The notes under the pieces are model-generated. The model saw only the letters and a program-made list of their open reading frames with translations, ran no database searches and was not told the origin of the DNA. From a virus (taxonomy: Duplodnaviria; Heunggongvirae; Uroviricota; Caudoviricetes), in the IMG/VR virus record IMGVR_UViG_2698536610_000002: a stretch of DNA of 57,929 nucleotides; one strand, given 5' to 3'. This document shows, piece after piece, positions 17,949-34,395 of the stretch (the first letter of the stretch is position 1; every line of letters starts with the position of its first letter). The position numbers and the translations under genes were made by a program.

Positions 17949-18468
17949 ATGGAAGTCAACAAAAAGCAGCTGGCTGACATTTTCGGTGCGAGTATCCGTA
18001 CCATTCAGAACTGGCAGGAACAGGGAATGCCCGTTCTGCGAGGCGGTGGCAAGGGTAATGAGGTGCTTTATGACTCTGCCGCCGTTATAAGATGGTATGC
18101 CGAAAGGGATGCTGAAATTGAGAACGAAAAGCTGCGCCGGGAAGTTGAAGAACTGCGGCGGGCCAGCGAGACAGATCTCCAGCCAGGGACTATTGAGTAC
18201 GAACGCCATCGACTTACGCGTGCGCAGGCCGACGCACAGGAGCTGAAAAATGCCAGAGACTCCGCTGAAGTGGTGGAAACCGCATTCTGTACTTTCGTGC
18301 TGTCGCGGATCGCAGGTGAAATTGCCAGTATTCTCGACGGGATCCCCCTGTCGGTGCAGCGGCGTTTTCCGGAACTGGAAAACCGACATGTTGATTTCCT
18401 GAAACGGGATATCATCAAAGCCATGAACAAAGCAGCCGCGCTGGATGAACTGATATCGGGGTTGCTGA

Positions 18469-18494
<26 letters not shown>
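17949..18494 (+). CDS. Nu1: Terminase small subunit Nu1
   Basis: 181 aa MEVNKKQLADIFGASIRTIQNWQEQGMPVLRGGGKGNEV... matches lambda Nu1. Confidence 0.95.
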
Positions 18495-21475
<2,981 letters not shown>

Positions 21476-21552
21476 AACCCTTGCTGCGTCTGGAATGTCG
21501 TTTTCCATGCTTTTGATGACCGTTCATCACCCTTCCAGTTTTTCGCGGTTTT

Positions 21553-21604
21553 GTGTATTGCAATGTGTATTGCAAATTGGCGATCGGGATGGGTGTGTAT
21601 TGCA
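21553..21604 (+). repeat. Three direct copies of gtgtattgca next to the left junction (candidate integrase arm-type sites)
   Basis: gtgtattgca at 21553-21562, 21565-21574, 21595-21604, just upstream of the island int start (21624). Confidence 0.5.
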
Positions 21605-21623
21605 AATCTCTTGAGGGCTTTTA

Positions 21624-22865
21624 ATGGCTATTGAAAACAAACTCAGTGACAAACTGTTAAAGAGTCTTGTCGGAAAACGGCAGGACAAACAAAAAACAAT
21701 AGCGGATGGGCGCGGGTTGTCTGTGCGTGTAAGCATGGTTGGGGGGATCAGCTTTGTTTTTTACTATCGTCTTGGTGGCAGGGAATCCCCTCCGGTATGG
21801 CTTACACTTGGTCGCTATCCTGACATGTCTCTTGCAACGGCCAGGCGCATGCGTGATCAGTGCCGTGAATGGCTAGCTGAAAATCTGGACCCCCGCAGGC
21901 AAATAAAACTTGCTGCCGAAAAAACTATGCAACCAGTGACCGTAAGGGATGCGCTGTTTTACTGGTACGACAATCACGCCACAACAGCCAGAAAAGAGCA
22001 TGAATATTTAATAAAACGATTTGAAAAGCATATCTTCCCCTATATCGGTGATATGGCTATAGAACAGTGCAAATTACACACATGGCTTACCGTCTTTGAC
22101 AGGATCAAAAAAAATGCGCCTGTTATGTCTGGTGCAATTTTTCTTGATATCAAACAGGCGTTGCGTTTTTGTCGCGTCAGGCAATACATCGCGTGCGATC
22201 CCTTTGGAGATATTAACGTAAGTTATGTCGGGCGCTCATCCGGTATAAGGGATCGCGTTCTTAATATCAATGAAACCGCTGATGTATGGTCTTATGCTTA
22301 CGGTAATAATTTGCTAACTCTGTCATCAATATATAACCGAAGAATAATGGTTATCTGCCTGGTGTTTGGTTGCCGACAGCAGGAGGCGAGGCTATCCACC
22401 TGGGACGAATGGGATTTAAAAAACTGGGTATGGACAGTCCCAAAAGAGCACAGCAAAAACAAGGAGGCTATAGTAAGGCCTGTTCCTGACGGAATAAAAC
22501 AATGGATCGTTAATCTTTACGCAGAAACAAAAAATCGCGGTTATGTTGTCGGTTGTGCTTTGCAAAGGGCGACAATAACAGGGGCTGCAAACAGAATATG
22601 CAGGCGTCTTGGTCATGATACTAATGGCTTGTGGTGCATACATGATTTCAGGCGCACATTTTCCACTACGCTTAATGATATGGGGGCGGATCCTTATATT
22701 GTCGAACTTCTTTTAGGTCATAAAGTGAAAGGGGTTGCTGGTGTTTACAATAAAAGCAGGCATATAAAGAAAAAACTTGAGGTGCTTAATATGTGGGTTA
22801 ATTACCTTAATACGATAGCAGGATTTAACAACAACGTTATCGAGCTTAATAAAGAGGTGGTGTGA
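21624..22865 (+). CDS. int: P4-type tyrosine integrase
   Basis: 413 aa; N-terminal arm-binding-like region GRGLSVRVSMVGGISFVFYYR; C-terminal HDFRRTF...LLGHK...GVYNKS catalytic motifs. Confidence 0.9.
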   Translation: MAIENKLSDKLLKSLVGKRQDKQKTIADGRGLSVRVSMVGGISFVFYYRLGGRESPPVWLTLGRYPDMSLATARRMRDQCREWLAENLDPRRQIKLAAEKTMQPVTVRDALFYWYDNHATTARKEHEYLIKRFEKHIFPYIGDMAIEQCKLHTWLTVFDRIKKNAPVMSGAIFLDIKQALRFCRVRQYIACDPFGDINVSYVGRSSGIRDRVLNINETADVWSYAYGNNLLTLSSIYNRRIMVICLVFGCRQQEARLSTWDEWDLKNWVWTVPKEHSKNKEAIVRPVPDGIKQWIVNLYAETKNRGYVVGCALQRATITGAANRICRRLGHDTNGLWCIHDFRRTFSTTLNDMGADPYIVELLLGHKVKGVAGVYNKSRHIKKKLEVLNMWVNYLNTIAGFNNNVIELNKEVV

Positions 22866-22866
22866 T

Positions 22867-23124
22867 ATGGCAATTTATTCTCTTGTTGATGAAAACGATT
22901 TGCGCACAATGAAGGACATTGATCGGTTCATTCGTGAAAAAGAGTGCATAGCACTTACCACGCTGGCAAACTCAACACGCTGGAAAATGGAGCAGGCAGG
23001 TAAATTCCCGCGACGTATCAAGATCGGTGAACGTGCTGCAGGGTATCGACTTTCAGAGGTTCAGGCATGGATCCGTGGTGAGTGGCATCCTGGATGGAAA
23101 CCTGGAAAAACAAAACAGCAATAA
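22867..23124 (+). CDS. alpA: AlpA-family transcriptional regulator/excisionase-like protein
   Basis: 85 aa; KFPRRIKIGERAAGYRLSEVQAWIRGEW pattern typical of AlpA. Confidence 0.7.
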   Translation: MAIYSLVDENDLRTMKDIDRFIREKECIALTTLANSTRWKMEQAGKFPRRIKIGERAAGYRLSEVQAWIRGEWHPGWKPGKTKQQ

Positions 23125-23180
23125 CCAGTAAATAATGCCCCTCATCACGAGGGGTTTTTTGTCTATAAGGTAAAAACGCG

Positions 23181-23759
23181 ATGAATAAAAATATTGCCGT
23201 GACGGGCAAGGGGTACGCTCGTCCAGTGAAAAAATTCTGCGATATTCGTGATCTCGTCGTTCTGCGCTTTGATAGTGTGAACGTTCGTGTGGTGTATCTG
23301 AACGGCGATCCGTGGTTTGTTGCAAAAGATGTTTGTGCTGCGCTGGAACTAACCAATTCGCGTACGGCGTTGCAGATGCTTGATGATGATGAAAAGGGAG
23401 TAAATTTAACTTACACCCCAGGAGGAAATCAGAATATGAGAATTATCTCTGAGTCAGGTTTCTACAAACTAATAGCCCGCAGCCGCAAAGCAACGACGCC
23501 TGGCACATTTGCTCATCGTTTCAGTAACTGGGTATTCAGAAATGTGATACCAGGTATCAGAAAAACGGGGACTTATGGTATCCCGTGGGGTGCATTACAG
23601 GATTTTTCCCGCCGTAAAGAGCAATATCAAATAAGTGCCAGCGAGAAGGGGAGGGAGCTACAGGCATGTAAGCGCAAAAAGCGTGAGCTGGAGGAAGAAG
23701 AAAAAACGCTGATACGTGAATATCAGCCTGAGTTTTACTTTGGTAACCGCATTCAGTGA
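23181..23759 (+). CDS. Bro-N domain protein (antirepressor-like)
   Basis: VRVVYLNGDPWFVAKDVCAALELTNSRTALQMLDDDEKG is a canonical Bro-N signature. Confidence 0.7.
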   Translation: MNKNIAVTGKGYARPVKKFCDIRDLVVLRFDSVNVRVVYLNGDPWFVAKDVCAALELTNSRTALQMLDDDEKGVNLTYTPGGNQNMRIISESGFYKLIARSRKATTPGTFAHRFSNWVFRNVIPGIRKTGTYGIPWGALQDFSRRKEQYQISASEKGRELQACKRKKRELEEEEKTLIREYQPEFYFGNRIQ

Positions 23760-24092
23760 CAAAACAAAGGCGACCGCAAAAGGGTCGCCAGTGGGAACAA
23801 GGGAAAACAAAAGCATCACCAACAATGCCACATTTGCGGCTGGTGGGCAATGTGATCAGTCAGATTTGGTTCGTTCCAAGGTTTGCAACGAGAGCTTTTT
23901 CCTGTGCTCTTTAAGGAATTTCTCAAGAGCAAACGAACAAGGTGCGAATCTTTCTGATTCATGTTCATGCGCTATATTTTTGCGTCGTCTCTTACGAGTT
24001 GGTGATGGTGTTTTGGTTGATTCTGTGTCGCTCATGGTGCTGTCCTGTAAAGCAATGCGCCTGCGTTCCTCAAACTATGGCGCTGATATTGG

Positions 24093-24398
24093 CTATTCAT
24101 GCTCTTTGACCTTGCGTCGCTGGAGTTCTTCACGCGCGACGGTGACGAGTTGCCCGATCTCCTCGGCTGCTTTGATGCCGATTTGTTCGACCTTAGCCAG
24201 GGCATCCAGTGACGACACAAGGGGATTTTCTCCGCTGCCTTCTGCTTGGCGGCGGGCTATTTCTCCGCGCATGGCGGTTACGATAAATCCGGCATTGCTT
24301 TCACCGTCCAGCTTAACGGATTCCATCCCTTGCATAACATCTAGTGGGACTCTGACAGTTGTCAGTTGTGATTTTGCGTTTTTGTTAGCCGTTGCCAT
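24093..24398 (-). CDS. Hypothetical protein divergent from the small-ORF operon (possible regulator)
   Basis: 101-aa ORF; start codon confirmed at 24396-24398; lies opposite a promoter/operator region. Confidence 0.45.
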   Translation of the reverse strand: MATANKNAKSQLTTVRVPLDVMQGMESVKLDGESNAGFIVTAMRGEIARRQAEGSGENPLVSSLDALAKVEQIGIKAAEEIGQLVTVAREELQRRKVKEHE

Positions 24399-24459
24399 TT
24401 CTGAAACTCCTAATCATCGGTGTGTTTCAGTATACACAAAAAAAGAAATACAAAAAGCC

Positions 24460-24497
24460 TTGACGTGTGTTTCATGCGCTCATAACATGAAACACAC
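24460..24497 (+). promoter_or_regulatory. Sigma70-like promoter overlapped by an inverted repeat (candidate operator)
   Basis: ttgacg (24460-24465), 17-nt spacer, taacat (24483-24488); inverted repeat gtgtgtttcatg ... catgaaacacac spans the -10 element. Confidence 0.5.
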
Positions 24498-24588
24498 CGA
24501 AAGGATTGTTGAAATACAAAGAGCAACGCCCCGCAGTGCTGGGAACACATACGGGGCGTCTAACCAACAACGTAAACTAGGAGCCGTT

Positions 24589-24786
24589 ATGGTTGCTGTA
24601 AATCATATACCACACCTTGTACACACACAAACGGCCTTTGTGTGGCGTTTTCTGGCACTGAGTGCCGGAGAATCTCAAATCATCCACGTAACCGCCTGGA
24701 CGGAACGCGAAGCGCGTAGCCGTTGCCCGTCCGGTTGTGTTGCTGTATTCGCTGCAAAAATCCGCCAGGGAGTGAGTCATGCTTAA
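24589..24786 (+). CDS. Small hypothetical protein (first gene of the island operon)
   Basis: 65-aa ORF with SD aggag 7 nt upstream; stop overlaps next ORF start. Confidence 0.45.
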   Translation: MVAVNHIPHLVHTQTAFVWRFLALSAGESQIIHVTAWTEREARSRCPSGCVAVFAAKIRQGVSHA

Positions 24787-24964
24787 AACCTTCCGTGTAT
24801 TTGCCCGAGCTGTTAACCCAATAGGCCACGCAATTGGTATCGCTCAGAATGTGAAGGCTGTTAATGTTCAGACGGCTATTGCTGCGGTGAGAAGCGAATC
24901 ATCAGAATATGGCTTATCACAAGTCATTATTTCAGCAGTGTATGAATTAAAAGAGGTGCATTAA
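24779..24964 (+). CDS. Small hypothetical protein
   Basis: 61-aa ORF; start/stop overlap neighbours (translationally coupled chain). Confidence 0.4.
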   Translation: MLKTFRVFARAVNPIGHAIGIAQNVKAVNVQTAIAAVRSESSEYGLSQVIISAVYELKEVH

Positions 24965-25155
24965 TGCAGGAAATTACATTACACGAAGCCGCTGAACGTG
25001 CGCACCAGACAGAAATTATTTGCCGCCTTCTTGAGGTATACCCGAACAAAATTACAGATGCTGATATATCCGCACTGGCGAGCCTACTGGCGCGTCTTTC
25101 GGGAAGTGTCGCTAGTTTTTTGATTGAGGAAGAAAGTAAGCTGGTGGGGGATTAA
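24964..25155 (+). CDS. Small hypothetical protein
   Basis: 63-aa ORF in the coupled chain. Confidence 0.4.
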   Translation: MQEITLHEAAERAHQTEIICRLLEVYPNKITDADISALASLLARLSGSVASFLIEEESKLVGD

Positions 25156-25377
25156 ATGAATACAGAACGGGAAGTCTTTTTTAAATTGTTAGCATGTGCA
25201 GAAAGTTCATTAACTTTAAATAATTCAGCAAAAGCAATATTAAATATGTGGCTTGATTGCATAAATGACAATGAAGATGCAAATATTGCTTATGGCCTGT
25301 TGTCACTTATTGATGAATCAGCAGAAAAACTCAATGACGCAATAAATAGTGCCCTGCTATCAAATAAGTCGAGTTAA
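25156..25377 (+). CDS. Small hypothetical protein
   Basis: 73-aa AT-rich ORF in the coupled chain. Confidence 0.4.
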   Translation: MNTEREVFFKLLACAESSLTLNNSAKAILNMWLDCINDNEDANIAYGLLSLIDESAEKLNDAINSALLSNKSS

Positions 25378-25394
25378 GTCGAGGAATAAATAAT

Positions 25395-25694
25395 ATGGAA
25401 ATGAAAAATTCTGGCTTTATTGCCAGCGGCCCCGCTCGAACTGAATTTATGAACGGCGATATTTACCGCGATAAATACGGCGGCACGGTAACGATTAAAG
25501 GCGTGGCAGAACGGCGCATCACTTACCGCCGTGAGGGGTATAGCTATGACTGCGTGATGCCTGTTTATCAGTTCCGGCGTGATTTTTCCCTGGTATATGC
25601 CACACCCCGCAGTAAGCCCATCAGCAGGGAAAAAGCGTGGGGAAATATCCAGAAAATGAAAACCATGATTAACGGATTCAGAGGTAAAAAATGA
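25395..25694 (+). CDS. Hypothetical protein
   Basis: 99-aa ORF; stop overlaps the primase start. Confidence 0.45.
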   Translation: MEMKNSGFIASGPARTEFMNGDIYRDKYGGTVTIKGVAERRITYRREGYSYDCVMPVYQFRRDFSLVYATPRSKPISREKAWGNIQKMKTMINGFRGKK

Positions 25695-27445
25695 AACTGG
25701 CACCGAACGTAAAACAGCAGTCACGCGGCATAAAACACAAAGGAACAGAAGTCATTATTTTTGCGGGTAGTGATGCCTGGGCACACGCGAAACAATGGCA
25801 GGAACATGATGCGCGTATGGCCGGAGATAATGAGCCTCCTGTGTGGCTTGGGGAGCAGCAGCTATCCGAACTGGATAATCTGCAAATTGTGCCGGAAGGC
25901 CGAAAATCAGCACGCATATACAGGGCCGGATATCTTGCGCCTGTAATGATAAAGGCGATTGGTCAGAAGCTGGCGGCAGCAGGCGTACAGGATGCAAATT
26001 TTTATCCTGAGGGTATGCACGGCCAGGAGGTGCAGAACTGGCGCGAATATCTGGCCCGTGAACGCCAGAATCTTTCTGATGGTCTGGTCATTGAGCTTCC
26101 GGTAAAGCAAAAGGCGCAACTTTCGCAGATGGCGGACAGTGAGCGCGCGCAGTTGCTTGCCGATCGCTTTGATGGCGTTTGCGTACATCCTGAAAGTGAA
26201 ATCGTTCACGTATGGCGCGGCGGGGTATGGTGTCCGGTCAGCACAATGGAACTTAGCCGCGAAATGGTGGCGATCTATTCAGAGCACAGGGCCACTTTCA
26301 GCAAGCGCGTAATCAATAACGCCGTGGAAGCGTTAAAAGTTATTGCCGAACCAATGGGCGAGCCGTCTGGCGATTTGCTGCCGTTCGCCAATGGTGCGCT
26401 TGACCTGAAAACGGGGGAATTTTCCCCGCACACGCCGGAGGACTGGATCACCACGCACAACGGCATTGAGTACACGCCACCAGCACCAGGGGAGAACATC
26501 CGCGATAACGCGCCAAACTTTCATAAATGGCTTGAGCACGCAGCCGGAAAAGACCCGCGCAAGATGATGCGTATATGTGCCGCGCTGTACATGATTATGG
26601 CGAACCGGTACGACTGGCAGATGTTTATTGAGGCCACCGGAGACGGCGGGAGCGGTAAAAGTACATTCACACACATAGCCAGCCTTCTGGCAGGGAAACA
26701 GAACACGGTAAGCGCTGAAATGACATCGCTTGATGATGCTGGTGGACGTGCGCAGGTTGTCGGGAGTCGTCTTATCGTCCTGGCTGACCAGCCGAAATAT
26801 ACAGGCGAAGGAACGGGCATCAAGAAAATCACAGGCGGCGACCCCGTGGAAATTAACCCGAAATATGAAAAGCGTTTCACGGCGGTAATCAGGGCGGTGG
26901 TGCTGGCGACCAACAACAACCCGATGATATTCACCGAACGGGCCGGAGGTGTGGCACGTCGTCGCGTGATTTTCCGTTTCGACAATATCGTCAGTGAGGC
27001 CGAAAAAGACAGGGAGCTACCGGAAAAGATTGCGGCTGAAATCCCCGTTATTATCCGCCGATTGCTGGCGAACTTTACCGACCCTGAGAAGGCACGGGCT
27101 TTACTACTGGAACAGCGTGACGGTGATGAAGCACTGGCAATAAAGCAACAGACGGATCCGGTTATTGAGTTTTGCCAGTTCCTGAATTTTCTGGAGGAAG
27201 CGCGCGGCCTGATGATGGGTGGCGGTGGTGATTCAGTGAAGTACACGACCAGGAACAGCCTTTACCGCGTCTATCTGGCGTTTATGGCATACGCGGGCAG
27301 GAGCAAACCGCTAAACGTGGCTGAGTTCAGCAAGGCCATGAAGCCAGCGGCGAAAGTTTACGGGCATGAATATATTACGCGAAAAGTTAAGGGAGTAACG
27401 CAGACCAACGCAATTACAACAGACGATTGCGACGCGTTTTTATAA
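25691..27445 (+). CDS. P4-alpha-like primase-helicase (D5/P4-family C-terminal NTPase)
   Basis: 584 aa; Walker A TGDGGSGKST and Walker B-like RLIVLAD; size and position typical of satellite replication proteins. Confidence 0.85.
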   Translation: MKLAPNVKQQSRGIKHKGTEVIIFAGSDAWAHAKQWQEHDARMAGDNEPPVWLGEQQLSELDNLQIVPEGRKSARIYRAGYLAPVMIKAIGQKLAAAGVQDANFYPEGMHGQEVQNWREYLARERQNLSDGLVIELPVKQKAQLSQMADSERAQLLADRFDGVCVHPESEIVHVWRGGVWCPVSTMELSREMVAIYSEHRATFSKRVINNAVEALKVIAEPMGEPSGDLLPFANGALDLKTGEFSPHTPEDWITTHNGIEYTPPAPGENIRDNAPNFHKWLEHAAGKDPRKMMRICAALYMIMANRYDWQMFIEATGDGGSGKSTFTHIASLLAGKQNTVSAEMTSLDDAGGRAQVVGSRLIVLADQPKYTGEGTGIKKITGGDPVEINPKYEKRFTAVIRAVVLATNNNPMIFTERAGGVARRRVIFRFDNIVSEAEKDRELPEKIAAEIPVIIRRLLANFTDPEKARALLLEQRDGDEALAIKQQTDPVIEFCQFLNFLEEARGLMMGGGGDSVKYTTRNSLYRVYLAFMAYAGRSKPLNVAEFSKAMKPAAKVYGHEYITRKVKGVTQTNAITTDDCDAFL

Positions 27446-27454
27446 TTTTTTGTA

Positions 27455-27700
27455 AAAGCCATCTACCCCATCTACCTGAACAAAATAAACTCATATTATT
27501 CAACATGATAAGTGGGTATAGGGCTAGGTAGAAGGCTAATAAAAGCTCTCTACCTCTTCTACCTGATTTTATCAGTTTCAGGTAGCAGGGTAGACGGCAG
27601 GTAGAGGAGTCAAAAAGCTATCTACCCGCTGAAAGCCGCGCCATTACTGACATGATGAGCATTCGGGTAGATGGGTAGAGGGGGGGAGGCACAACTAAAA
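27455..27700. repeat. Iteron cluster (repeated ctacc/ggtag-containing motifs) downstream of the primase: candidate island ori
   Basis: catctaccccatctacctg, gctaggtagaagg, ctctacctcttctacctg, caggtagcagggtagacggcaggtagagg, ctatctacccg, cgggtagatgggtagaggg. Confidence 0.6.
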
Positions 27701-27731
27701 ACTTTTTAAACGAGGGGGGGGGTGAAAATAA

Positions 27732-28046
27732 ATGCGCATACATAAAAATCACTTAACAAACATGCCAGCCGAAAACATGAATCAGGGGCGACAAATGACC
27801 AAAATTCGCAGAGACAGAACACAGGCAAAATATAAAGCGTTAGACATGACAGAGCTTTCCTTAAAGGTGGCAATCAAAGCGATAGACCACCACACACGGG
27901 CAGGATACGCGAAGGAACATCCCGACCTGATAAGCGCATTCATGACCACAGCAGCGGCAAACTTTGCCACGCTGACAGAACGGGAGATTGCCGAAGCGGA
28001 ACAGGTGACAACCATCAATGTTAAAACCGGAGAGCAGACAGCATGA
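27732..28046 (+). CDS. Hypothetical protein
   Basis: 104-aa ORF preceded by a G9 homopolymer (27714-27722). Confidence 0.4.
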   Translation: MRIHKNHLTNMPAENMNQGRQMTKIRRDRTQAKYKALDMTELSLKVAIKAIDHHTRAGYAKEHPDLISAFMTTAAANFATLTEREIAEAEQVTTINVKTGEQTA

Positions 28047-28465
28047 CAGCACAGATAGCGGCTTACGGGCGGCTGGTGGCTGACCCGCAGTTAAAGACCA
28101 CCAGCAAAGGGACACAAATGGCGATGGCGAGTATGGCGGTTCCCCTGCCGTGCAGCCAGGCAGATGACGGAACGGCGACGATGTGGTTATCCGTCCTGGC
28201 GTTTGGCAGACAGGCCGACGCACTGGCAAAACACCACAAAGGCGAACTGGTGAGCGTGGCGGGTAACATGCAGGTAAGCCAGTGGACAGGCCAGAACGGC
28301 GAAACGCGGCGGGGCTGGCAGGTTATCGCAGACAGCGTAATCAGTGCGCGAACGGCGCGACCGGGCGGCAAAAAAGGCCAGCAGGGGCAGGCCACTGACG
28401 CACTGAACAGGGCAAAACAACAGTCGGGGAATGATGATCCGTACGGCGATAATATACCGTTTTAA
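28043..28465 (+). CDS. SSB-like single-stranded DNA-binding protein
   Basis: 140 aa; Gly/Gln-rich tail ending in the acidic DDPYGDNIPF motif characteristic of SSB C-termini. Confidence 0.55.
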   Translation: MTAQIAAYGRLVADPQLKTTSKGTQMAMASMAVPLPCSQADDGTATMWLSVLAFGRQADALAKHHKGELVSVAGNMQVSQWTGQNGETRRGWQVIADSVISARTARPGGKKGQQGQATDALNRAKQQSGNDDPYGDNIPF

Positions 28466-28676
28466 ATTCTACAAACAAAAAGATGCCGGAAAAAAATAGA
28501 TTTTCCGGCATGCTACATAAATCCCGACCAAAGGAAGTAAATACATTAACACGAATTATCAGCACTGAAGTTGTTACGGCATATTTTATACAACATTGCA
28601 CTTGGTTGCATGTATTCGCATAGCAGACATCGGTAATAGAATATATTCACAATTATTTGTAATGAATGTAAAGAGG

Positions 28677-29723
28677 ATGAGTATGGTTGATTTATATTCG
28701 CCTACACAGCTTGTGCAGGTGGCTAATGCTGAAGATGTGCAAAAAAAATTAAATGCGTTGTTTACCAGTTTGTTTTTCACTCGCTCGGTAATGTTTGAAT
28801 CGAGAGACATTATTCTTGATACGATCGACGATCCAAATATCCCGATCGCGGCGTTTTGCTCTCCTATGGTGGGCAGTAAAGTTTCACGAGATGAGGGATA
28901 CGAATCAAAAACAATTCGTCCAGGTTATATGAAGCCGAAAAGCAGCATTGATCCAAATAAGTTAGCTGTGCGCCCTGCTGGTGTGTCACCTGAGCAATAC
29001 AATGCTTTTGGGGCGCGTAATATTAAAGTTAAACAGGCGATTGTAAATCAGGCTAAAGCTATTCGTGCACGTATTGAATGGCTTGCTGTTCAGGCAATCA
29101 CAACGGGGAAAAATATCATTGAGGGCGATGGTATTGAACGTTATGAGCTGGACTGGAATATAAAACCACAAAATATCATCACTCAGTCTGGCGGTACTGA
29201 GTGGTCAGGTAAGGATAAAGAAACTTTTGATCCAAATGATGATATTGAGAGCTACGCAGAATTTAGTGAGGGCGTCACTAATATCATCATTATGGGTGGT
29301 AATGTATGGAAGAAATACCGTTCATTCAGAGCGATAAAAGAGGCTTTGGATACCCGTCGTGGTTCTAATTCCGAACTGGAAACGGCCCTTAAAGACCTTG
29401 GTGATTCGGTGAGTTTTAAAGGGTATATGGGCGATGTTGCGATTGTTGTTTACAGCGGGCGTTATACCGACGAGGACGGAACAGAAAAACATTTCCTTGA
29501 TCCTGATTTGATGGTGCTTGGCAATACGGCTCTTCAGGGGATTGTCGCCTATGGCGGTATTCAGGATCCGGAGCTAATCCGAATGGGGCTGACTAAAGCC
29601 GAACTTGCACCGAAAAACTATATTGTGCCTGGTGATCCGGCTATTGAATATGTGCAGACACATTCAGCACCACAGCCAATACCGGCCCGCATCAATCGTT
29701 TTGTTACCGTTCGCATTGGCTAA
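28677..29723 (+). CDS. Major capsid protein E homologue (island copy)
   Basis: Starts MSM like lambda gpE; blocks ITQSGGTEWS, LDTRRGSNSELETALKDLG and YMGDVAIVVYSG align with the helper gpE at 34793-35818. Confidence 0.8.
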   Translation: MSMVDLYSPTQLVQVANAEDVQKKLNALFTSLFFTRSVMFESRDIILDTIDDPNIPIAAFCSPMVGSKVSRDEGYESKTIRPGYMKPKSSIDPNKLAVRPAGVSPEQYNAFGARNIKVKQAIVNQAKAIRARIEWLAVQAITTGKNIIEGDGIERYELDWNIKPQNIITQSGGTEWSGKDKETFDPNDDIESYAEFSEGVTNIIIMGGNVWKKYRSFRAIKEALDTRRGSNSELETALKDLGDSVSFKGYMGDVAIVVYSGRYTDEDGTEKHFLDPDLMVLGNTALQGIVAYGGIQDPELIRMGLTKAELAPKNYIVPGDPAIEYVQTHSAPQPIPARINRFVTVRIG

Positions 29724-29732
29724 GGGGGAGCA

Positions 29733-30074
29733 ATGCCTACTCATTACACTGAACTCATGGCTGGCACTGAAGCACTGGTGACTACGCTGGGGATATTTTC
29801 AGCTAATAAAGGGGTAATTCCTGCATTTACGCCACTGATGCAGGAAGATGCAACAGGTGCACTGGTGGTATGGGATGGTTCGAGCGTAGGTAAAGCGGTT
29901 TATGTTTCCGCTGTACAAATCGACACAGCGAAAAAAACACAGGCACAGGTTTATAAGACAGGTGTTTTAAATGTTGATGCTCTGAACTGGCCTGAGTCTG
30001 TAAAAGAACTGTCGGCAAAGGTTGCCGCGTTTGTTGGCTCAGGTATTTCTGTTCAGCCGCTGGCTCGTGTGTAA
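29733..30074 (+). CDS. Head decoration protein D homologue (island copy)
   Basis: 113 aa; FTPLMQEDATGALVVWDGSSVGKAVYVSAV and AAFVGSGISV align with lambda gpD ([30 protein letters not shown] ... AFAGTAISI). Confidence 0.8.
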   Translation: MPTHYTELMAGTEALVTTLGIFSANKGVIPAFTPLMQEDATGALVVWDGSSVGKAVYVSAVQIDTAKKTQAQVYKTGVLNVDALNWPESVKELSAKVAAFVGSGISVQPLARV

Positions 30075-30085
30075 AGGGGGATACA

Positions 30086-30469
30086 ATGCAGAATCATTAC
30101 AATGACCTTAAGCCAATTGCCGAAATGATGTATCCGGATCCAGCAGTAGAGGAATTAAAGGCTATTGCTGACAAAATGCGTTTAAGTGAACGCCTTGTTG
30201 ATATGAATCAGGTGATGGAACTTACTACCCTTAGCCGTCGCACATTGCTAAACCTTGAGGCTCGCGGAGAGTTCCCCGAACGCGTACAGGTTACGGAAGG
30301 GCGTAAGGCCTGGTATTTAAGTGAAGTGATCGACTGGATAAACAATATTCCTCGATCTTCTGAATATTGCCGCGTATCTGTCCCAAAAAAGCCAGATGCG
30401 GCGCTATGCCTCAAGATTGAGCGTGTACGTCGCAATGCACGGGATGGTCGCTATAAGTTGATTGGTTGA
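30086..30469 (+). CDS. HTH protein (AlpA/MerR-like) upstream of the island cos
   Basis: 127 aa; LTTLSRRTLLNLEARGEFPERVQV...WYLSEVIDWINN resembles an AlpA-type HTH. Confidence 0.45.
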   Translation: MQNHYNDLKPIAEMMYPDPAVEELKAIADKMRLSERLVDMNQVMELTTLSRRTLLNLEARGEFPERVQVTEGRKAWYLSEVIDWINNIPRSSEYCRVSVPKKPDAALCLKIERVRRNARDGRYKLIG

Positions 30470-30525
30470 TGAAATTAGGGCCCGTTCTGGCTGGCGGGTC
30501 CTTTCCGGCGATCCGGTAGGCTACG

Positions 30526-30537
30526 GGGCGGCGACCT
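30526..30537. other. Second cosN (gggcggcgacct) belonging to the island
   Basis: gggtcctttccggcgatccggtaggctacg gggcggcgacct cgcgggttttcgctatttatga: near-identical to the helper cos for ~75 nt, then diverges in the cosB region. Confidence 0.8.
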
Positions 30538-30685
30538 CGCGGGTTTTCGCTATTTATGAGCCTTTTTCGGGTGCTGGTGGTGGTTTTGTTGTTCGCTCTA
30601 TCTCTATGAATAAAAAGGAAAAGATAAAGCCAATACACCAACCTGAAACATTACTTAAGTGGGGATATTGATGAAATCGCACCTG

Positions 30686-31213
30686 ATGAACAAAAAAAAC
30701 ATGGCGCAAAGCTGCCGTGTAAGTGCGACAGCGTTCGACAAGTGGGGAGTGACTCCCGTTGAACGTAAAGGCCGCGAGGCGTTTTATGATGTTGCCAGCG
30801 TAATAGACAATCGGGTTAGCAATGCAATTAACCAGATTACAGACGACAAAGGCGAGATTGATGATGATGAACTCCTACGAGTCAGGATCAGATTGCTGAC
30901 AGCACAGGCAGAGGCGCAGGAGCTTAAAAACGAGCGCGAACGCGGCGACGTTATTGATACAGCGTTTTGTATATACGTGCTTTCAAAATTGGCGAGTCAG
31001 ATTTCTTCAATCATGGACAGCCTGCCGCTTGCCATGACAAGGAAGTTTCCCGACATGAAGCCGTCTATGCTGGATGGACTGAAAAAAGAAGTTATCAGAG
31101 CCTGTAACGCATGCGCAAAACTTGACGAAAACATACCGCTGATGCTGTCCGATTATCTGATGGAAACTGCCGGAAACGTACCGGATAAGTTGCAGCCGAA
31201 TAAAGATAAGTAA
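30686..31213 (+). CDS. Nu1-like small terminase subunit (island copy, divergent N-terminal DNA-binding domain)
   Basis: Start set at MNKKNMAQ (Nu1 MEVNKKQLA); C-terminal ELKNERERGDVIDTAFCIYVLSKLASQISSIMDSLPLAMTRKFP aligns with Nu1 ELKNARDSAEVVETAFCTFVLSRIAGEIASILDGIPLSVQRRFP. Confidence 0.8.
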   Translation: MNKKNMAQSCRVSATAFDKWGVTPVERKGREAFYDVASVIDNRVSNAINQITDDKGEIDDDELLRVRIRLLTAQAEAQELKNERERGDVIDTAFCIYVLSKLASQISSIMDSLPLAMTRKFPDMKPSMLDGLKKEVIRACNACAKLDENIPLMLSDYLMETAGNVPDKLQPNKDK

Positions 31214-31224
31214 CGTAGTACGCT

Positions 31225-31506
31225 ATGACTGAATCCGAAATACTGCGATTAATCCGCCGTGCTTGTGGAATCAGCAAGCAGCATGACGAACAGGCCACGC
31301 AGCCGGACAGCGTGACCGCAGATAATTATGTGCGTGTAGTGGCTGAGGTGATGCGCCGTGACGGTATTGAGCTTAACGGCGTGGATATGCGCAACATACG
31401 AACAAGAGTCCTTGAGTTGCTGGCATATCGTCGCCGTTCTCAACAACGGAGGGAGAGCGCGAAAAATACTTACCAGTGGAAGAAGCCGGAACGATTGCGG
31501 CGGTAA
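31225..31506 (+). CDS. Hypothetical protein
   Basis: 93-aa ORF, Arg-rich C-terminus. Confidence 0.4.
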   Translation: MTESEILRLIRRACGISKQHDEQATQPDSVTADNYVRVVAEVMRRDGIELNGVDMRNIRTRVLELLAYRRRSQQRRESAKNTYQWKKPERLRR

Positions 31507-31521
31507 CTTGCTGATATTCCC

Positions 31522-31879
31522 GATAACGCAAAATTGCGCTGGCTGACTTGTTGCATTGCAAAAAGTTAAGCAGGAAGGCACGGCCTGTAAGATGGGATGC
31601 AGTAAGTAGTTCAAGGCTACCTTGTGCTGGCACGCACAGTTAAGCCGTCGGTGCTGGATATCCCCCACTGGGGGAAAAGCTGGCTACATCCCTCACATCT
31701 GAGGACTGATAACGCGACATTGCGCTGGCTGGCAAAGTGCAAAATTGCACGATGGCCTAACCCATTGATTATTTCGAAAACCTGCAATGCAGGAAATCGG
31801 GGAAGTAAGCCTAAGCTATTAATTGTTTCGAAAACCCCCATTGGGGGATGTCGGGAAAGTAAGACTAACCCATTGATTC
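31522..31879. repeat. Non-coding array of repeated hairpin-containing modules
   Basis: gataacgc(a/g)a(a/c)attgcgctggctg twice (31522, 31708); tandem ~55-bp units tt(a/g)tttcgaaaacc[hairpin]g(a/g)tcggg(g/a)aagtaag(c/a)ctaa at 31770 and 31825; cccattgatt flanks at 31761 and 31870. Confidence 0.55.
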
Positions 31880-32220
31880 TTCCACAATCCTCAATTTGAG
31901 GAGGCCGGAACGTCTACATAGCTGCATCGCCGTAATGATGATTCAGCCCACCAGCCAAATCAGCACAGCAACGACAGAATAGCCCGACACAGAAAAACCA
32001 CGAATATGGGGTTTTTGTTATGACATGGTCATGATGACCACTCATACAAAACAGGTAAAGCCCACCAGCCTGATTAAAGGTTAACCGGAAAAAAGCCAGG
32101 TATCCAATCTCGATATGGGGATCCCTATATCGACATTAACGCCCACTAAAACTGTGCATATATGCATAGAAAAAGCATCCACCAGCTTTATGACGGATGC
32201 CGCTCATCTTATAAATAATC

Positions 32221-32242
32221 GTGTATTGCAGTGTGTATTGCG
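32221..32242 (+). repeat. Two copies of gtgtattgc(a/g) next to the right junction
   Basis: gtgtattgca 32221-32230 and gtgtattgcg 32233-32242, same motif as at the left end. Confidence 0.5.
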
Positions 32243-32321
32243 ACTCCTTTAAACGATAGGTCTGAGCATTCGTAATGTACTGTTTTTAAATTTTATTTTT
32301 TCCTGTCTTTTCATAAAGGCG

Positions 32322-33095
32322 ATGTATGCCGCCACCATTGAGAGTGAGCTGGATACGCAGTCAGCGATGGATTTTATTCTGGGCGCGAACAGTCAGGAGC
32401 AGCGGGAAAGGCTGACCGGCTGGATTGGTGAAATTGCCGCGTATTACGCCGCAGCACCGGTCCGTCTGGGAGGCGCAAAAGTGCCGCACCTGATGCCGGG
32501 GGACTCACTGAACCTGCAGACGGCTCAGGACACGGATAACGGCTACTCCGTGTTTGAGCAGTCACTGTTGCGGTATATCGCTGCCGGGCTGGGTGTCTCG
32601 TATGAGCAGCTTTCCCGGAATTACGCCCAGATGAGCTACTCCACGGCACGGGCCAGTGCGAACGAGTCGTGGGCGTACTTTATGGGGCGGCGAAAATTCG
32701 TCGCATCCCGTCAGGCGAGCCAGATGTTTCTGTGCTGGCTGGAAGAGGCCATCGCTCGCCGCGTGGTGACGTTACCTTCAAAAGCGCGCTTCAGTTTTCA
32801 GGAAGCCCGAAGTGCCTGGGGGAACTGCGACTGGATAGGCTCCGGTCGTATGGCCATCGATGGTCTGAAAGAAGTACAGGAAGCGGTGATGCTGATAGAA
32901 GCCGGACTGAGTACCTACGAGAAAGAGTGCGCAAAACGCGGTGACGACTATCAGGAAATTTTTGCCCAGCAGGTCCGTGAAACGATGGAGCGCCGTGCAG
33001 CCGGTCTTAAACCGCCCGCCTGGGCGGCTGCGGCATTTGAATCCGGACTGCGACAATCAACAGAGGAGGAGAAGAGTGACAGCAGAGCTGCGTAA
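32322..33095 (+). pseudogene. B: Portal protein B, C-terminal 257 codons, separated from the N-terminal part by the island
   Basis: MYAATIESELDTQSAMDFILGANSQEQRERLTGW... continues lambda gpB exactly from the residue after ...SAIVKA. Confidence 0.85.
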
Positions 33096-34395
33096 TCTCC
33101 CGCATATTGCCAGCATGGCTTTTAATGAGCCGCTGATGCTTGAACCCGCCTATGCGCGGGTTTTCTTTTGTGCGCTTGCAGGCCAGCTTGGGATCAGCCG
33201 CCTGACGGATGCAGTATCCGGCGACAGCCTGACTGCCGGAGAGGCACCCGCGGCGCTGGCGTTATCCGGTGATGATGACGGACCACGACAGGCCCGCAGT
33301 TATCAGGTCATGAACGGCATCGCCGTGCTGCCAGTGTCCGGTACGCTGGTCAGCCGGACGCGGGCGCTGCAGCCGTATTCGGGAATGACCGGTTACAACG
33401 GCATTATCGCCCGTCTGCAACAGGCTGCCAGCGATCCGATGGTGGACGGCATTCTGCTGGATATGGACACACCGGGCGGGATGGTGGCGGGAGCATTTGA
33501 CTGTGCTGACATCATCGCCCGTGTGCGTGACATAAAACCGGTATGGGCGCTGGCCAACGACATGAACTGCAGTGCAGGTCAGCTGCTTGCCAGCGCCGCC
33601 TCCCGGCGTCTGGTCACGCAGACCGCCCGGACAGGCTCCATCGGCGTCATGATGGCTCACAGTAATTACGGTGCTGCGCTGGAGAAACAGGGCGTGGAAA
33701 TCACGCTGATTTACAGCGGCAGCCATAAGGTGGATGGCAACCCCTACAGCCATCTTCCGGATGACGTCCGGGAGACACTGCAGTCCCGGATGGATGCAAC
33801 CCGCCGGATGTTTGCGCAGAAGGTGTCGGCATATACCGGCCTGTCCGTGCAGGCTGTGCTGGATACCGAGGCTGCAGTGTACAGCGGTCAGGAGGCCATT
33901 GATGCCGGACTGGCTGATGAACTTGTTAACAGTACCGATGCGATCACCGTTATGTGTGATGCACTGGATGCACGTAAATCCCGTCTCTCAGGAGGGCGAA
34001 TGACCAAAGAGACTCAATCAACAACTGTTTCAGCCACTGCTTCGCAGGCTGACGTTACTGACGTGGTGCCAGCGACGGAGGGCGAAAACGCCAGCGCGGC
34101 GCAGCCGGACGTGAACGCGCAGATCACCGCTGCGGTTGCGGCAGAAAACAGCCGCATTATGGGGATCCTCAACTGTGAGGAGGCTCACGGACGCGAAGAA
34201 CAGGCCCGCGTGCTGGCAGAAACCCCCGGTATGACCGTGGAAACGGCCCGCCGCATTCTGGCCGCAGCACCACAGAGTGCACAGGCGCGCAGTGACACTG
34301 CGCTGGATCGTCTGATGCAGGGGGCACCGGCACCGCTGGCTGCAGGTAACCCGGCATCTGATGCCGTTAACGATTTGCTGAACACACCAGTGTAA
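33076..34395 (+). CDS. C: Head protease/minor capsid protein C (scaffold Nu3 nested in frame)
   Basis: GTG start at 33076 giving (M)TAELRNLPHIASMAFNEPLMLEP... as in lambda C; the upstream ATG at 32941 lies inside B. Confidence 0.9.
   Translation: MTAELRNLPHIASMAFNEPLMLEPAYARVFFCALAGQLGISRLTDAVSGDSLTAGEAPAALALSGDDDGPRQARSYQVMNGIAVLPVSGTLVSRTRALQPYSGMTGYNGIIARLQQAASDPMVDGILLDMDTPGGMVAGAFDCADIIARVRDIKPVWALANDMNCSAGQLLASAASRRLVTQTARTGSIGVMMAHSNYGAALEKQGVEITLIYSGSHKVDGNPYSHLPDDVRETLQSRMDATRRMFAQKVSAYTGLSVQAVLDTEAAVYSGQEAIDAGLADELVNSTDAITVMCDALDARKSRLSGGRMTKETQSTTVSATASQADVTDVVPATEGENASAAQPDVNAQITAAVAAENSRIMGILNCEEAHGREEQARVLAETPGMTVETARRILAAAPQSAQARSDTALDRLMQGAPAPLAAGNPASDAVNDLLNTPV

What the first reader, a model, noticed from the sequence alone, without database searches (positions are those of the whole stretch)
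31507..32250. Array of repeated hairpin modules in the island's non-coding right end
The ~800 bp between the last island ORF and the right junction has no ORF of 60 aa or more but is highly structured: two copies of gataacgc.a.attgcgctggctg with gcaaaattgc palindromes, and two tandem ~55-bp units each holding a perfect small hairpin (ctgcaatgcag, cccccattggggg) followed by g.tcggg.aagtaag.ctaa; a third hairpin cccccactggggg lies at 31662-31674. This looks like a set of RNA stem-loops or protein-binding sites, possibly an RNA-based immunity or regulatory element as in P4.
Basis: seen in the sequence. Interest (0 to 1): 0.5.

Follow-up and report, generated by a model that had tools for sequence, protein, structure and literature searches.

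The report
Borrowed Roi/IHF operator array in PICI
The non-coding right end of this phage satellite holds three evenly spaced copies of a 54-bp DNA module (an IHF-binding consensus next to a small palindrome), each copy matching a different version of a site that lies inside the roi regulator gene of lambda-like phages, so it is most likely a protein-docking array and not an RNA element.

Summary
The repeats and hairpins are real. There are three tandem 54-bp units (31755-31916), not two, plus degenerate copies upstream. The island is a helper-embedded PICI satellite inserted in the portal gene of a lambdoid prophage. Each unit is an exact or near-exact IHF consensus, a 12-nt spacer and a 13-bp palindrome. 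Each unit is homologous (37-41 of 46 nt) to a different allele of a roughly 50-nt patch inside roi, the Rha-HTH/KilAC antirepressor-like gene of lambdoid phages. From memory, HK022 Roi binds within its own gene next to an IHF site. Across 31 distinct modules the palindrome arms covary (0/500 shuffles reach the observed score), with almost no G-U pairs, and symmetry usually runs to a single central base. Related PICIs carry different mixes of five palindrome classes, and each class has a phage roi counterpart. No PICI encodes Roi. Rfam finds nothing, P4 shows no similarity, and the ori iterons are absent, so the P4-like RNA reading is not supported. Downstream lie three same-strand Chi sites, oriented to face the cos left end, followed by integrase arm sites. 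Best reading: a phased IHF plus Roi-type operator array that docks helper-phage regulators. What that docking achieves is unknown.

The parts
31497..31546 (+). Degenerate module overlapping the orf93 stop codon: GGTAACTTGCTGA (a near-IHF consensus, TATCAGCAAGTTA, on the minus strand), palindrome core GCAAAATTGC (31528-31537), and a Chi-like GCTGGCTG. First copy of the 24-nt repeat (31522-31545).
   Evidence: In related islands the same element ends in a true plus-strand Chi, GCGCTGGCTGGTGGG.
31551..31561 (.). Palindrome TTGCATTGCAA.
31640..31704 (+). Degenerate module remnants: palindromes CCCCCACTGGGGG (31662-31674) and CCCTCAcatcTGAGG (31690-31704). The IHF consensus is no longer intact.
   Evidence: The minus-strand translation reads FPQWGISSTDGL, which resembles the Roi wing segment.
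31706..31750 (+). Second copy of the 24-nt repeat (31708-31731), followed by palindrome GTGCAAAATTGCAC (31737-31750).
31755..31808 (+). Unit 1: exact IHF consensus AATCAATGGGTTA on the minus strand (31758-31770), a 12-nt spacer, palindrome CCTGCAATGCAGG (31781-31793), then ATCGGGG. Corresponds to the roi alleles whose patch encodes 'PALQ' (HK022 and L228).
   Evidence: 37 of 46 nt match the L228 roi patch.
31809..31862 (+). Unit 2: near-IHF consensus with one mismatch (31812-31824), palindrome CCCCCATTGGGGG (31835-31847). Corresponds to the roi alleles whose patch encodes 'PPM(G/V)' (VT2-Sakai type).
   Evidence: 88.7% identity over 53 nt to VT2-Sakai roi; 38 of 46 nt.
31863..31916 (+). Unit 3: exact IHF consensus (31866-31878), palindrome CCTCAATTTGAGG (31889-31901). 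Corresponds to the roi alleles whose patch encodes 'PQIE' (JLK-2012, H-19B and HK620 type).
   Evidence: 97.7% identity over 43 nt to JLK-2012 roi; 41 of 46 nt; 55 phage records match.
31948..31955 (-). Chi octamer GCTGGTGG, first of three.
31961..32039 (.). Block conserved at 92-94% in EcN/CFT073-type islands. Function not identified.
32062..32069 (-). Chi octamer, second of three. It lies inside a module (AAAGCCCACCAGCCTGATTAA..GGTTAACCGGAAAAAAGCCAGGTA) that is repeated in related islands.
32106..32137 (.). Inverted repeat AATCTCGATATGGGGA / TCCCTATATCGACATT with no gap between the arms. It recurs in related islands.
32174..32201 (-). Terminator-like hairpin followed by a T-run on the minus strand. 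It contains the third Chi octamer (32179-32186).
32222..32243 (+). Doubled integrase arm-type motif GTGTATTGCAgtGTGTATTGCG. Three further copies lie at the left end, 21554-21603.
   Evidence: The motif is described for helper-embedded PICIs in PMC10111431.
32315..32328 (.). attR identity block AAGGCGATGTATG. The attL copy is at 21417-21431. This is the junction with the C-terminal part of the portal gene.

Best explanation
The tandem units are double-stranded DNA protein-binding modules. Each pairs an IHF site with a 13-bp palindromic operator of the kind found inside the roi gene of lambdoid phages. Roi is a winged-helix (Rha-type) DNA-binding protein with a KilAC antirepressor-like domain.

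The satellite has no roi gene. It displays three such modules, one for each of three Roi specificity classes, spaced 54 bp apart (about five helical turns). Proposed mechanism: when a roi-carrying phage grows in the cell, its Roi dimers bind the cognate palindrome, and IHF bends the DNA at the adjoining site. This builds a nucleoprotein complex at the 3' end of the satellite's late operon, just upstream of the Chi cluster and attP.

Shown here: homology to the roi patch, palindrome covariation, conservation of the IHF consensus, allele-by-allele correspondence, and absence of Roi in PICIs.

Inferred: that Roi and IHF actually bind the units, and what follows from binding. My preferred consequence is that the array docks or titrates the helper's regulator, acting as a sensor or decoy. 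A transcriptional roadblock or insulator in front of attP-int is the alternative.

The three minus-strand Chi sites downstream are a separate feature. I read them as protection against RecBCD entering from the cos left end.
For: 1. Homology to roi.
- Unit 3 is 97.7% identical over 43 nt to the roi gene of phage JLK-2012.
- Unit 2 is 88.7% identical over 53 nt to VT2-Sakai roi.
- Unit 1 shares its palindrome and IHF consensus with HK022 roi and matches 37 of 46 nt of another roi allele.
- The rest of the right end has no phage homologue.

2. Conserved layout in roi genes. In six of seven further roi alleles fetched as DNA, a palindrome of the form CC-N-N-(C/A)-A.T-(G/T)-N-N-GG lies at the same offset, with an exact IHF consensus 12 nt beyond. 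The one allele that lacks the IHF consensus also lacks the palindrome.

3. Palindrome covariation. Over 31 distinct modules, 85.5% of cells are paired, 5 of 6 pairs change on both sides, and 0 of 500 shuffles reach the observed score; slid controls give 35-55% paired. PICI copies show 103 of 110 core cells paired, no G-T pairs, and complementarity across the centre in 19 of 22. The PICI versions are more perfect palindromes than the coding versions in Sakai and HK022.

4. Protein and site vary together. Roi proteins are near-identical over residues 66-240 but hypervariable over 21-63 (entropy 2.0-2.6 bits against about 0.5). That stretch is the predicted recognition helix and wing of a winged helix (pLDDT 87-93). 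Recognition-helix classes track palindrome classes:
- KRT with CCTCAA.TTGAGG
- KQS with CCCCCA.TGGGGG
- K(I/V)S with CCTGCA.TGCAGG
- KRS with CGCCA.TGGCG

5. Panel-like arrays. In 19 distinct PICI arrays, units within an array almost never repeat a palindrome class, and the dominant spacing is 54 bp. All five PICI classes have phage roi counterparts.

6. No Roi in PICIs. tblastn finds no Roi homologue in the window or in any PICI locus.

7. Precedent, from memory. Clerget and Boccard 1996 (J Bacteriol 178:4077; cited in PMC3430580) reported that HK022 Roi binds a site within its own gene, closely linked to an IHF site, and that IHF stabilises the binding.
Against: - No binding data exist for any PICI unit.
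- I could not read the HK022 paper, so placing the Roi site on the palindrome is my inference.
- The resident helper prophage in this window has no roi.
- From my own knowledge, phage lambda lacks roi, yet lambda induces and mobilises EcCICFT073. Roi therefore cannot be a required helper signal.
- The link between recognition helix and palindrome could reflect physical linkage, since the two are 25-60 nt apart in one recombination patch. It is also not strictly one-to-one: KRS alleles carry two palindrome types.
- The modules are inverted relative to their orientation in roi.
- My module search anchored on part of the IHF consensus, so the count of 21 of 22 exact consensus matches is partly circular.
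- The fold search found only weak, non-significant matches to winged-helix regulators (best E = 0.024).
Confidence: 0.6

Rival explanations
1. The units are RNA stem-loops in a transcript. Examples would be a P4 CI/seqA-type immunity RNA, a type III antitoxin-like repeat RNA, or 3'-UTR stabilisers of the late operon.
For: The small GC-rich stems covary. The region lies downstream of the co-oriented late operon with no strong plus-strand terminator after orf93, so it is probably transcribed as a 3' UTR. Folding is somewhat better than shuffled sequence, with z = -2.1 on the plus strand and -2.8 on the minus strand.
Against: - Rfam gives no hit at E<=1.
- P4 shows no similarity.
- No toxin ORF lies nearby.
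- The same module sits in the opposite orientation inside a protein-coding gene.
- The arms show almost no G-U pairs, and the symmetry includes the bases next to a single central nucleotide, which a hairpin cannot pair.
- The conserved flanks match the IHF consensus, a DNA signal.
Confidence: 0.07
2. The units are functionless relics: fragments of roi genes acquired by recombination with helper phages, duplicated, and now decaying.
For: The units match roi coding sequence at 80-98% identity. In the roi reading frame the minus strand is open for 99 codons and reads as reiterated Roi-like peptides. PICIs are known to capture phage DNA (PMC10111431).
Against: - Homology stops at the edges of the roughly 50-nt IHF-plus-palindrome segment and never extends into flanking roi codons.
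- PICI palindromes are more perfect than those in the coding copies.
- Spacing is held at 54 bp across many islands.
- Arrays combine different classes instead of duplicating one.
- Positions that are codon-constrained in roi (TAA..TTGAT, CGG) stay conserved in non-coding PICI DNA.
Confidence: 0.14
3. The palindromes and IHF sites bind the satellite's own regulators, such as the two AlpA-family HTH proteins or Bro-zone proteins, and not helper Roi. They would serve, for example, as an architectural extension of attP or as a late-operon control region.
For: The island encodes two AlpA-family proteins, at 22867-23124 and 30086-30469. The array lies 400-560 bp from the att core, next to the integrase arm sites. 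The TCGCC..GGCGA class was found only in PICI-sized contigs as an exact sequence.
Against: One protein would not recognise five different half-sites. The classes mirror Roi allele classes, not PICI gene content. The Bro-N gene of this island is frameshifted. AlpA-family proteins have no known link to these palindromes.
Confidence: 0.1
4. The hairpins act as single-stranded or cruciform DNA structures, or as minus-strand intrinsic terminators (stem followed by TTTTCGAAA) that insulate the island from inward transcription.
For: On the minus strand, units 1 and 2 have a GC stem followed by TTTTCGAAA. A separate minus-strand terminator-like hairpin lies at 32174-32201.
Against: The T-run is missing in unit 3 and in many homologues, including HK022 and the JLK-type alleles. 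In the IHF reading it forms the AT-rich 5' part of the site. The stems are only 5 bp. The promoter/terminator scan did not call the units as terminators.
Confidence: 0.05
5. The region is a crr-like second replication site, as in P4, where crr lies between the alpha gene and attP.
For: Its position matches that of P4 crr: direct repeats between the last gene and attP.
Against: The ori iteron hexamer GGTAGA/TCTACC occurs 10 times in the 288-bp gap after the primase gene and not once in the 808-bp right end. The EcCICFT073 ori was mapped next to pri-rep (PMC6092414).
Confidence: 0.03

Closest known systems
Roi/IHF binding site inside the roi gene of phage HK022 and other lambdoid phages (Clerget and Boccard 1996, recalled from memory)
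   Same: Same layout: a palindrome, about 12 nt of spacer, then the IHF consensus. Direct sequence homology of 37-41 of 46 nt, allele by allele.
   Different: In phages there is one copy, inside the coding sequence, and it encodes the wing of Roi itself. Here there are three phased copies of different alleles, in non-coding DNA, in inverted orientation, in an element that has no roi.
P4 CI RNA with seqA/seqB/seqC (Rfam C4 and IsrK families)
   Same: It belongs to a satellite, and it consists of short repeated sequences capable of pairing.
   Different: No Rfam match. No similarity to P4. The element is not in the Bro zone, where PMC10111431 places CI-like RNAs. The repeats are self-complementary, not complementary to a distant partner.
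P4 late promoters Psid and PLL, which respond to P2 Ogr and P4 Delta (my own knowledge)
   Same: The concept of a satellite carrying cis sites that are read by a helper-encoded DNA-binding regulator.
   Different: Those are promoters with a known transcriptional output. Here no promoter is evident and the output is unknown.
Lambda cosB (R3-I1-R2-R1)
   Same: An IHF site interleaved with repeated protein-binding sites near the small terminase gene.
   Different: The island's cosN lies 1.2 kb upstream at 30526, and cosB must adjoin it. R sites are not palindromes.
BIME/RIP elements of E. coli (REP palindromes flanking an IHF site; my own knowledge)
   Same: Extragenic palindromes combined with an IHF consensus.
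   Different: Unrelated sequence. These modules are confined to PICI right ends and phage roi genes.
Chi recombination hotspots protecting linear DNA from RecBCD (my own knowledge: Chi is read from its 3' side)
   Same: Three exact octamers on one strand within 240 bp. They are oriented to be read by RecBCD entering at the cos left end.
   Different: The clustering is in the non-coding end of a satellite, whereas the surrounding lambdoid prophage has none. No experimental test exists.

Membership tests
IHF binding site | Consensus WATCAANNNNTTR | tested here: met
   Exact matches at 31758-31770 and 31866-31878 (minus strand); one mismatch in unit 2. There are 8 exact matches in the window against 2.7 expected. 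The NNNN positions vary among modules while the consensus positions stay fixed.
IHF binding site | A/T-rich tract on the 5' side of the core | tested here: met
   TTTTCGAAATA precedes the core on the minus strand in units 1 and 2. The tract is weaker in unit 3 (GATTGTGGAAG).
IHF binding site | IHF binds and bends the DNA | not testable with these tools
   Needs EMSA, footprinting or ChIP.
roi-internal Roi/IHF site | Sequence homology to the patch in roi genes | tested here: met
   Unit 3: 97.7% over 43 nt. Unit 2: 88.7% over 53 nt. Unit 1: 37 of 46 nt.
roi-internal Roi/IHF site | A palindrome at a fixed distance from the IHF core | tested here: met
   The 50-column alignment of 31 modules is gapless, and the palindrome occupies columns 27-41. 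The offset is the same in 6 further roi alleles.
roi-internal Roi/IHF site | Located inside a roi gene and bound by the Roi that gene encodes | tested here: not met
   The units lie in non-coding DNA, and neither the window nor any PICI locus has a Roi homologue. They are homologous copies of the site, not the autoregulatory site itself.
roi-internal Roi/IHF site | Roi protein binds the palindrome | not testable with these tools
   The HK022 paper is not held. Binding to PICI units has never been tested.
P4-type immunity RNA (CI/seqA; Rfam C4, IsrK) | Match to the covariance models | tested here: not met
   No family matches at E<=1 in 20000-34000 on either strand, apart from a chance miRNA hit outside the region.
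P4-type immunity RNA (CI/seqA; Rfam C4, IsrK) | Sequence similarity to P4 | tested here: not met
   The best blastn hit is 19 nt at E = 0.098.
Intrinsic terminator | GC-rich stem followed directly by a T-run, conserved in homologues | tested here: not met
   The scan does not call the units. The T-run is absent in unit 3 and in the HK022 and JLK-type alleles.
P4 crr / replication iterons | Shares iterons with the element's ori | tested here: not met
   GGTAGA/TCTACC occurs 10 times in the ori gap and 0 times in the right end.
Chi site cluster | Exact 5'-GCTGGTGG-3' octamers | tested here: met
   At 31948, 32062 and 32179, all on the minus strand. There are 10 in the window against 1.9 expected, all inside the island.
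Chi site cluster | Orientation such that RecBCD entering from a DNA end reads them | tested here: met
   They face the cos left end (cosN 30526), 1.4 kb away. The same arrangement is seen in most related PICIs for which cos was found. The orientation rule comes from my own knowledge.
Chi site cluster | Protection from RecBCD, or stimulation of recombination, in vivo | not testable with these tools
   Needs Chi point mutants and recBCD+/recD hosts.
Helper-embedded PICI (Tommasini et al. 2023) | Integrated in and co-oriented with a lambdoid late gene; doubled TGTATTGC motif in attP | tested here: met
   The portal gene is split at 21431 and 32315. The motif is at 21554-21603 and 32222-32243.

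The most novel reading that the evidence does not exclude
The satellite's right end is a multi-allele operator panel that captures the Roi regulator of whichever lambdoid phage is growing in the cell, together with IHF. This contest, or repeated gene conversion between PICI arrays and roi, is what keeps the 130-nt patch of roi hypervariable. That patch encodes the DNA-binding wing of Roi and is at the same time Roi's own operator. If so, this would be a new kind of satellite-helper interface: a decoy or sensor made of the helper's own autoregulatory sites.
Probability: 0.25. Interest if true: 0.75.

Novelty: new variant of a known kind. Interest (0 to 1): 0.6.

Why it matters
How E. coli PICIs sense and interfere with their helpers is only partly understood. 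The phage-encoded inducer of alpA was still unidentified in PMC6092414, and the roughly 800-bp non-coding right end found in these islands is not discussed in the PICI papers I could search.

This work shows that the end is built from phased copies of a helper-phage regulatory site, in several allelic specificities. It gives a concrete, testable link between satellites and the poorly understood Roi/Rha antirepressor-like family. It also offers an explanation for a hypervariable patch in roi.

The Chi cluster adds a second testable idea: cos-packaged satellites may protect their DNA from RecBCD with Chi sites, whereas the lambdoid helper carries none. Both features also matter to anyone engineering PICIs as delivery vehicles, because this 'empty' end is the obvious place to insert cargo.

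Tried and rejected
- Lambda O-type ori iterons. The palindromes resemble lambda ori iterons from memory. However, the resident phage's replication gene shows no such repeats, and the island's own ori lies after the primase gene.
- Second cos site or cosB. cosN is at 30526, not in this region.
- P4 CI RNA and P4 crr. Rejected on Rfam, BLAST and iteron counts.
- Sigma-54 promoter in GCTGGCTGGCAAAGTGCA. The spacing fits only loosely, and in relatives the motif is a Chi site.
- Hidden gene on the minus strand. There is an open frame of 99 codons, but no start context, no PHROG family, and the module spacings in relatives (99, 113 and 206 bp) do not all preserve the frame.
- Type III antitoxin-like repeat RNA. 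No toxin ORF and no Rfam hit.
- Genome-contig scan with the primase. It returned only 3 loci, none with strict modules.
- First viral contigs pattern, which included ATCGGRRAA. It found nothing because it was too strict.
- The search for related loci with Roi. It returned 80 loci, all of the KRT/CCTCAA class, so allele diversity had to come from the protein search plus contig look-ups.
- Fold search of the Roi N-domain model. It gave only weak matches to winged-helix regulators, none significant.
Full report
CONTEXT

The window is a DLP12/lambda-like prophage. Its small and large terminase genes lie at 17949-20394, and its cosN (GGGCGGCGACCT) lies at 17760.

A 10.9-kb island splits the portal gene. 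The N-terminal part of the portal gene ends near 21431 and the C-terminal part resumes at 32315. An identity block, AAGGCGAT(T/G)TATG, sits at both junctions.

The island's features, in order:
- a tyrosine integrase
- an AlpA-family regulator
- a frameshifted Bro-N gene
- Icd-like and DUF4222 genes
- a P4-alpha-type primase (25691-27445)
- GGTAGA-type ori iterons (27450-27690)
- SSB
- a capsid protein and a decoration protein
- a second AlpA-family protein
- its own cosN (30526-30537)
- a Nu1-type small terminase/Rpp-like gene (30659-31213)
- orf93 (31225-31506)

This is a helper-embedded PICI of the kind described by Tommasini et al. 2023 (PMC10111431). It carries their doubled TGTATTGC attP motif at 21554-21603 and 32222-32243. 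The finding covers the non-coding DNA between orf93 and attR.

OBSERVATION

The tandem array has three 54-bp units, not two: 31755-31808, 31809-31862 and 31863-31916. Additional palindromes and degenerate module copies lie upstream.

Mechanical ORFs of 74 and 91 aa cross the array. They have no PHROG family and no annotation in RefSeq.

Parts of the region occur in 1201 of 5426 complete E. coli genomes. The whole region occurs in only 48, so it is a mosaic of shared sub-modules.

ANATOMY OF A UNIT

Read on the plus strand, each unit has four parts:
- (G)CCTAACCCATTGAT, which is the IHF consensus WATCAANNNNTTR on the minus strand. It is exact in units 1 and 3 and has one mismatch in unit 2.
- A T-rich spacer of about 12 nt.
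- A 13-bp palindrome.
- A conserved (T/C)CGG.

The palindromes differ between units: CCTGCAaTGCAGG, CCCCCAtTGGGGG and CCTCAAtTTGAGG.

Related PICIs integrated at clpS, narP and other sites have the same module with the same or further palindromes, such as TTCGCCagcGGCGAA and CAGCCaacGGCTG.

I aligned 31 distinct modules in a gapless 50-column alignment. The arms covary strongly:
- 85.5% of cells are paired.
- 5 of 6 pairs show changes on both sides.
- 0 of 500 shuffles reach the observed score.
- Sliding the partner columns drops pairing to 35-55%.

G-U pairs are nearly absent. In most modules the complementarity runs up to a single central base. This fits a two-fold symmetric duplex site better than a hairpin.

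THE KEY LEAD: roi

A 66-nt module variant recovered from viral contigs hits 55 phage records. In every annotated case the hit lies inside roi, or a gene annotated as anti-repressor, KilA or DNA-binding protein, in the nin region. The match is on the strand opposite to the module's orientation in the PICI.

Roi has an N-terminal Phage_pRha domain and a C-terminal KilAC/ANT domain.

The units correspond to roi alleles as follows (46-nt figures):

| Unit | Closest roi allele | Identity |
|---|---|---|
| Window unit 3 | JLK-2012 | 97.7% over 43 nt; 41 of 46 |
| Window unit 2 | VT2-Sakai | 88.7% over 53 nt; 38 of 46 |
| Window unit 1 | HK022 (palindrome CTGCATTGCAG plus IHF consensus AATCAATGATTTA); metagenomic roi allele in a NinF-roi-RusA-NinH-Q context | 37 of 46 to the metagenomic allele |
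| EcN-type TCGCC unit | a further metagenomic allele | 35 of 46 |

The rest of the right end has no phage homologue.

From memory, Clerget and Boccard (1996) showed that HK022 Roi binds a site within its own gene, closely linked to an IHF site, and that IHF stabilises the binding. The paper is cited in PMC3430580 but is not held. That the palindrome is the Roi site is therefore my inference.

Roi AND ITS SITE VARY TOGETHER

Roi proteins are almost identical over residues 66-240 but very different over residues 21-63. In a 39-sequence alignment, entropy by segment is:
- 2.0 bits over residues 43-51
- 2.6 bits over residues 57-63
- about 0.5 bits in the flanks
- about 1.0 bit for the INNLG codons that form the IHF core

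An AlphaFold model (pLDDT 87-93 over residues 11-80) gives the topology strand, helix, helix (25-37), beta-hairpin (45-52 and 58-67), helix. This is a winged-helix topology in which the hypervariable stretch is the wing and the variable KxS/T positions lie in the second helix. The PDB fold search returned only weak, non-significant matches to MarR/PadR-type regulators.

Helix classes track palindrome classes across phage loci and database proteins:
- KRT with CCTCAA.TTGAGG (over 40 clusters, including a protein only 42% identical overall)
- KQS with CCCCCA.TGG(G/T)GG
- K(I/V)S with CCTGCA.TGCAGG
- KRS with (C)CGCCA.TGGCG(G) or CCTCCA.TGGAGG

The one fetched allele without an IHF core also has no palindrome.

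This fits allele-specific operator recognition. Linkage within one recombination patch could also produce the pattern.

ARRAYS AS PANELS

Among 19 distinct PICI arrays there are 1-3 strict modules each. The spacing is 54 bp in 14 of 23 intervals. Within an array, a palindrome class is almost never repeated.

All five PICI classes have phage roi counterparts. The exact TCGCCagcGGCGA version was found only in PICI-sized contigs.

No PICI locus and no part of this window encodes a Roi homologue. PICI palindromes are at least as perfect as the coding versions: 16 of 22 have perfect arms, compared with imperfect arms in Sakai and HK022. Homology stops at the module edges. These points argue against simple decay of captured gene fragments.

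ALTERNATIVES EXCLUDED

- Rfam gives nothing at E<=1 over the whole island.
- P4 has no similarity, no Chi site and no such module.
- The ori iteron hexamer is absent from the right end, 0 copies against 10 in the ori gap. A crr-like role is therefore unlikely, despite the position matching that of P4 crr.
- RNA folding is only modestly better than shuffled sequence on either strand.
- The minus-strand 'stem plus TTTT' is not conserved in homologues.

CHI CLUSTER

Downstream of the array lie three exact Chi octamers on the minus strand, at 31948, 32062 and 32179, spaced 114 and 117 bp apart.

All ten Chi sites in the 58-kb window are inside the island, against 1.9 expected. The surrounding 47 kb of prophage has none.

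By the known rule, Chi is recognised by RecBCD approaching from its 3' side. These three sites would therefore be read by an enzyme travelling rightwards from the cos left end (30538 onward), 1.4 kb away. Plus-strand Chi sites in the body of the island face the right end.

Related PICIs show the same arrangement. The Chi nearest attR is minus-strand in most of them. Some also carry a plus-strand Chi in the GCGCTGGCTGGTGGG element, which in this window has degenerated to GCTGGCTG.

I read this as RecBCD protection of cos-linearised or rolling-circle satellite DNA. It is untested.

WHAT REMAINS OPEN

Lambda, which from my own knowledge lacks roi, induces and mobilises EcCICFT073. The resident prophage here has no roi either. 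The array therefore cannot be an obligatory induction switch.

The options I can see for its role are:
- a decoy or sensor for roi-carrying phages
- a protein roadblock in front of attP-int
- an architectural IHF array

I found no paper in the searchable library that links PICIs with Roi or with Chi.

VERDICT

The P4-like RNA reading is not supported. The protein-binding reading is supported by homology and comparative evidence, and it is sharpened to a phased IHF plus Roi-type operator array. I rate this a new variant of a known kind of element, with moderate to high interest pending binding experiments.

Noticed in passing
window 21432-32314 versus the rest of the window: All 10 Chi octamers in the 58-kb window lie inside the 10.9-kb satellite (5 plus-strand and 5 minus-strand). 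The roughly 47 kb of lambdoid prophage has none, and P4 has none. Related PICIs carry 8-16 Chi per 11-13 kb.
   Followed up: partly
window 30526-30537 and 17760-17771: The satellite carries a cosN identical to the helper's, placed upstream of its own Nu1-type small terminase/Rpp-like gene. A plus-strand Chi sits 36 bp downstream, at 30573, inside the presumed cosB.
   Followed up: partly
window 26833-26844; L002 3380; L004 5576: A cosN-like sequence, AGGCGGCGACCC (2 mismatches), lies inside the primase gene. In EcN/CFT073-type and clpS-site PICIs the same position holds an exact cosN. This is probably the 'cos2' of Fillol-Salom et al. 2018.
   Followed up: no
window 27445-27732: The gap after the primase gene holds 10 copies of the hexamer GGTAGA/TCTACC in both orientations around an AT-rich centre. 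This is the expected PICI ori. The hexamer occurs nowhere else in the island.
   Followed up: yes
window 31617-31913, minus strand: The reading frame that corresponds to roi stays open for 99 codons across the whole module array. It reads as reiterated Roi-wing-like peptides (..PPQIEDCGRINGL.., ..HPPMGVFETINSLG.., ..FPALQVFEIINGLG.., ..FPQWGISSTDGL..). There is no start context and no PHROG hit.
   Followed up: partly
phage roi genes (L129-L132, L226-L232): The hypervariable residues 43-63 of Roi form the predicted wing of its winged-helix domain. The DNA encoding them is itself the palindrome-plus-IHF site, so the protein's variable DNA-binding part and its presumed operator are the same stretch of DNA.
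   Followed up: partly
window 31961-32039: This block is conserved at 92-94% in EcN/CFT073-type islands and is the most widely shared piece of the right end in E. coli. It contains an AAAAACC..GGTTTTT inverted repeat. Its function is unknown.
   Followed up: no
window 32174-32201, minus strand: A terminator-like hairpin with 11 pairs, followed by TTTTTC, faces into the island from the att side. The third Chi octamer is part of its stem.
   Followed up: no
window 23181-23759: The island's Bro-N gene is frameshifted (RefSeq marks it as a pseudogene in the near-identical strain). The island therefore has no intact Bro-zone DNA-binding protein.
   Followed up: no
window 30086-30469: A second AlpA-family HTH protein (127 aa) is encoded just upstream of the satellite's cos site, in addition to the AlpA next to int.
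   Followed up: no
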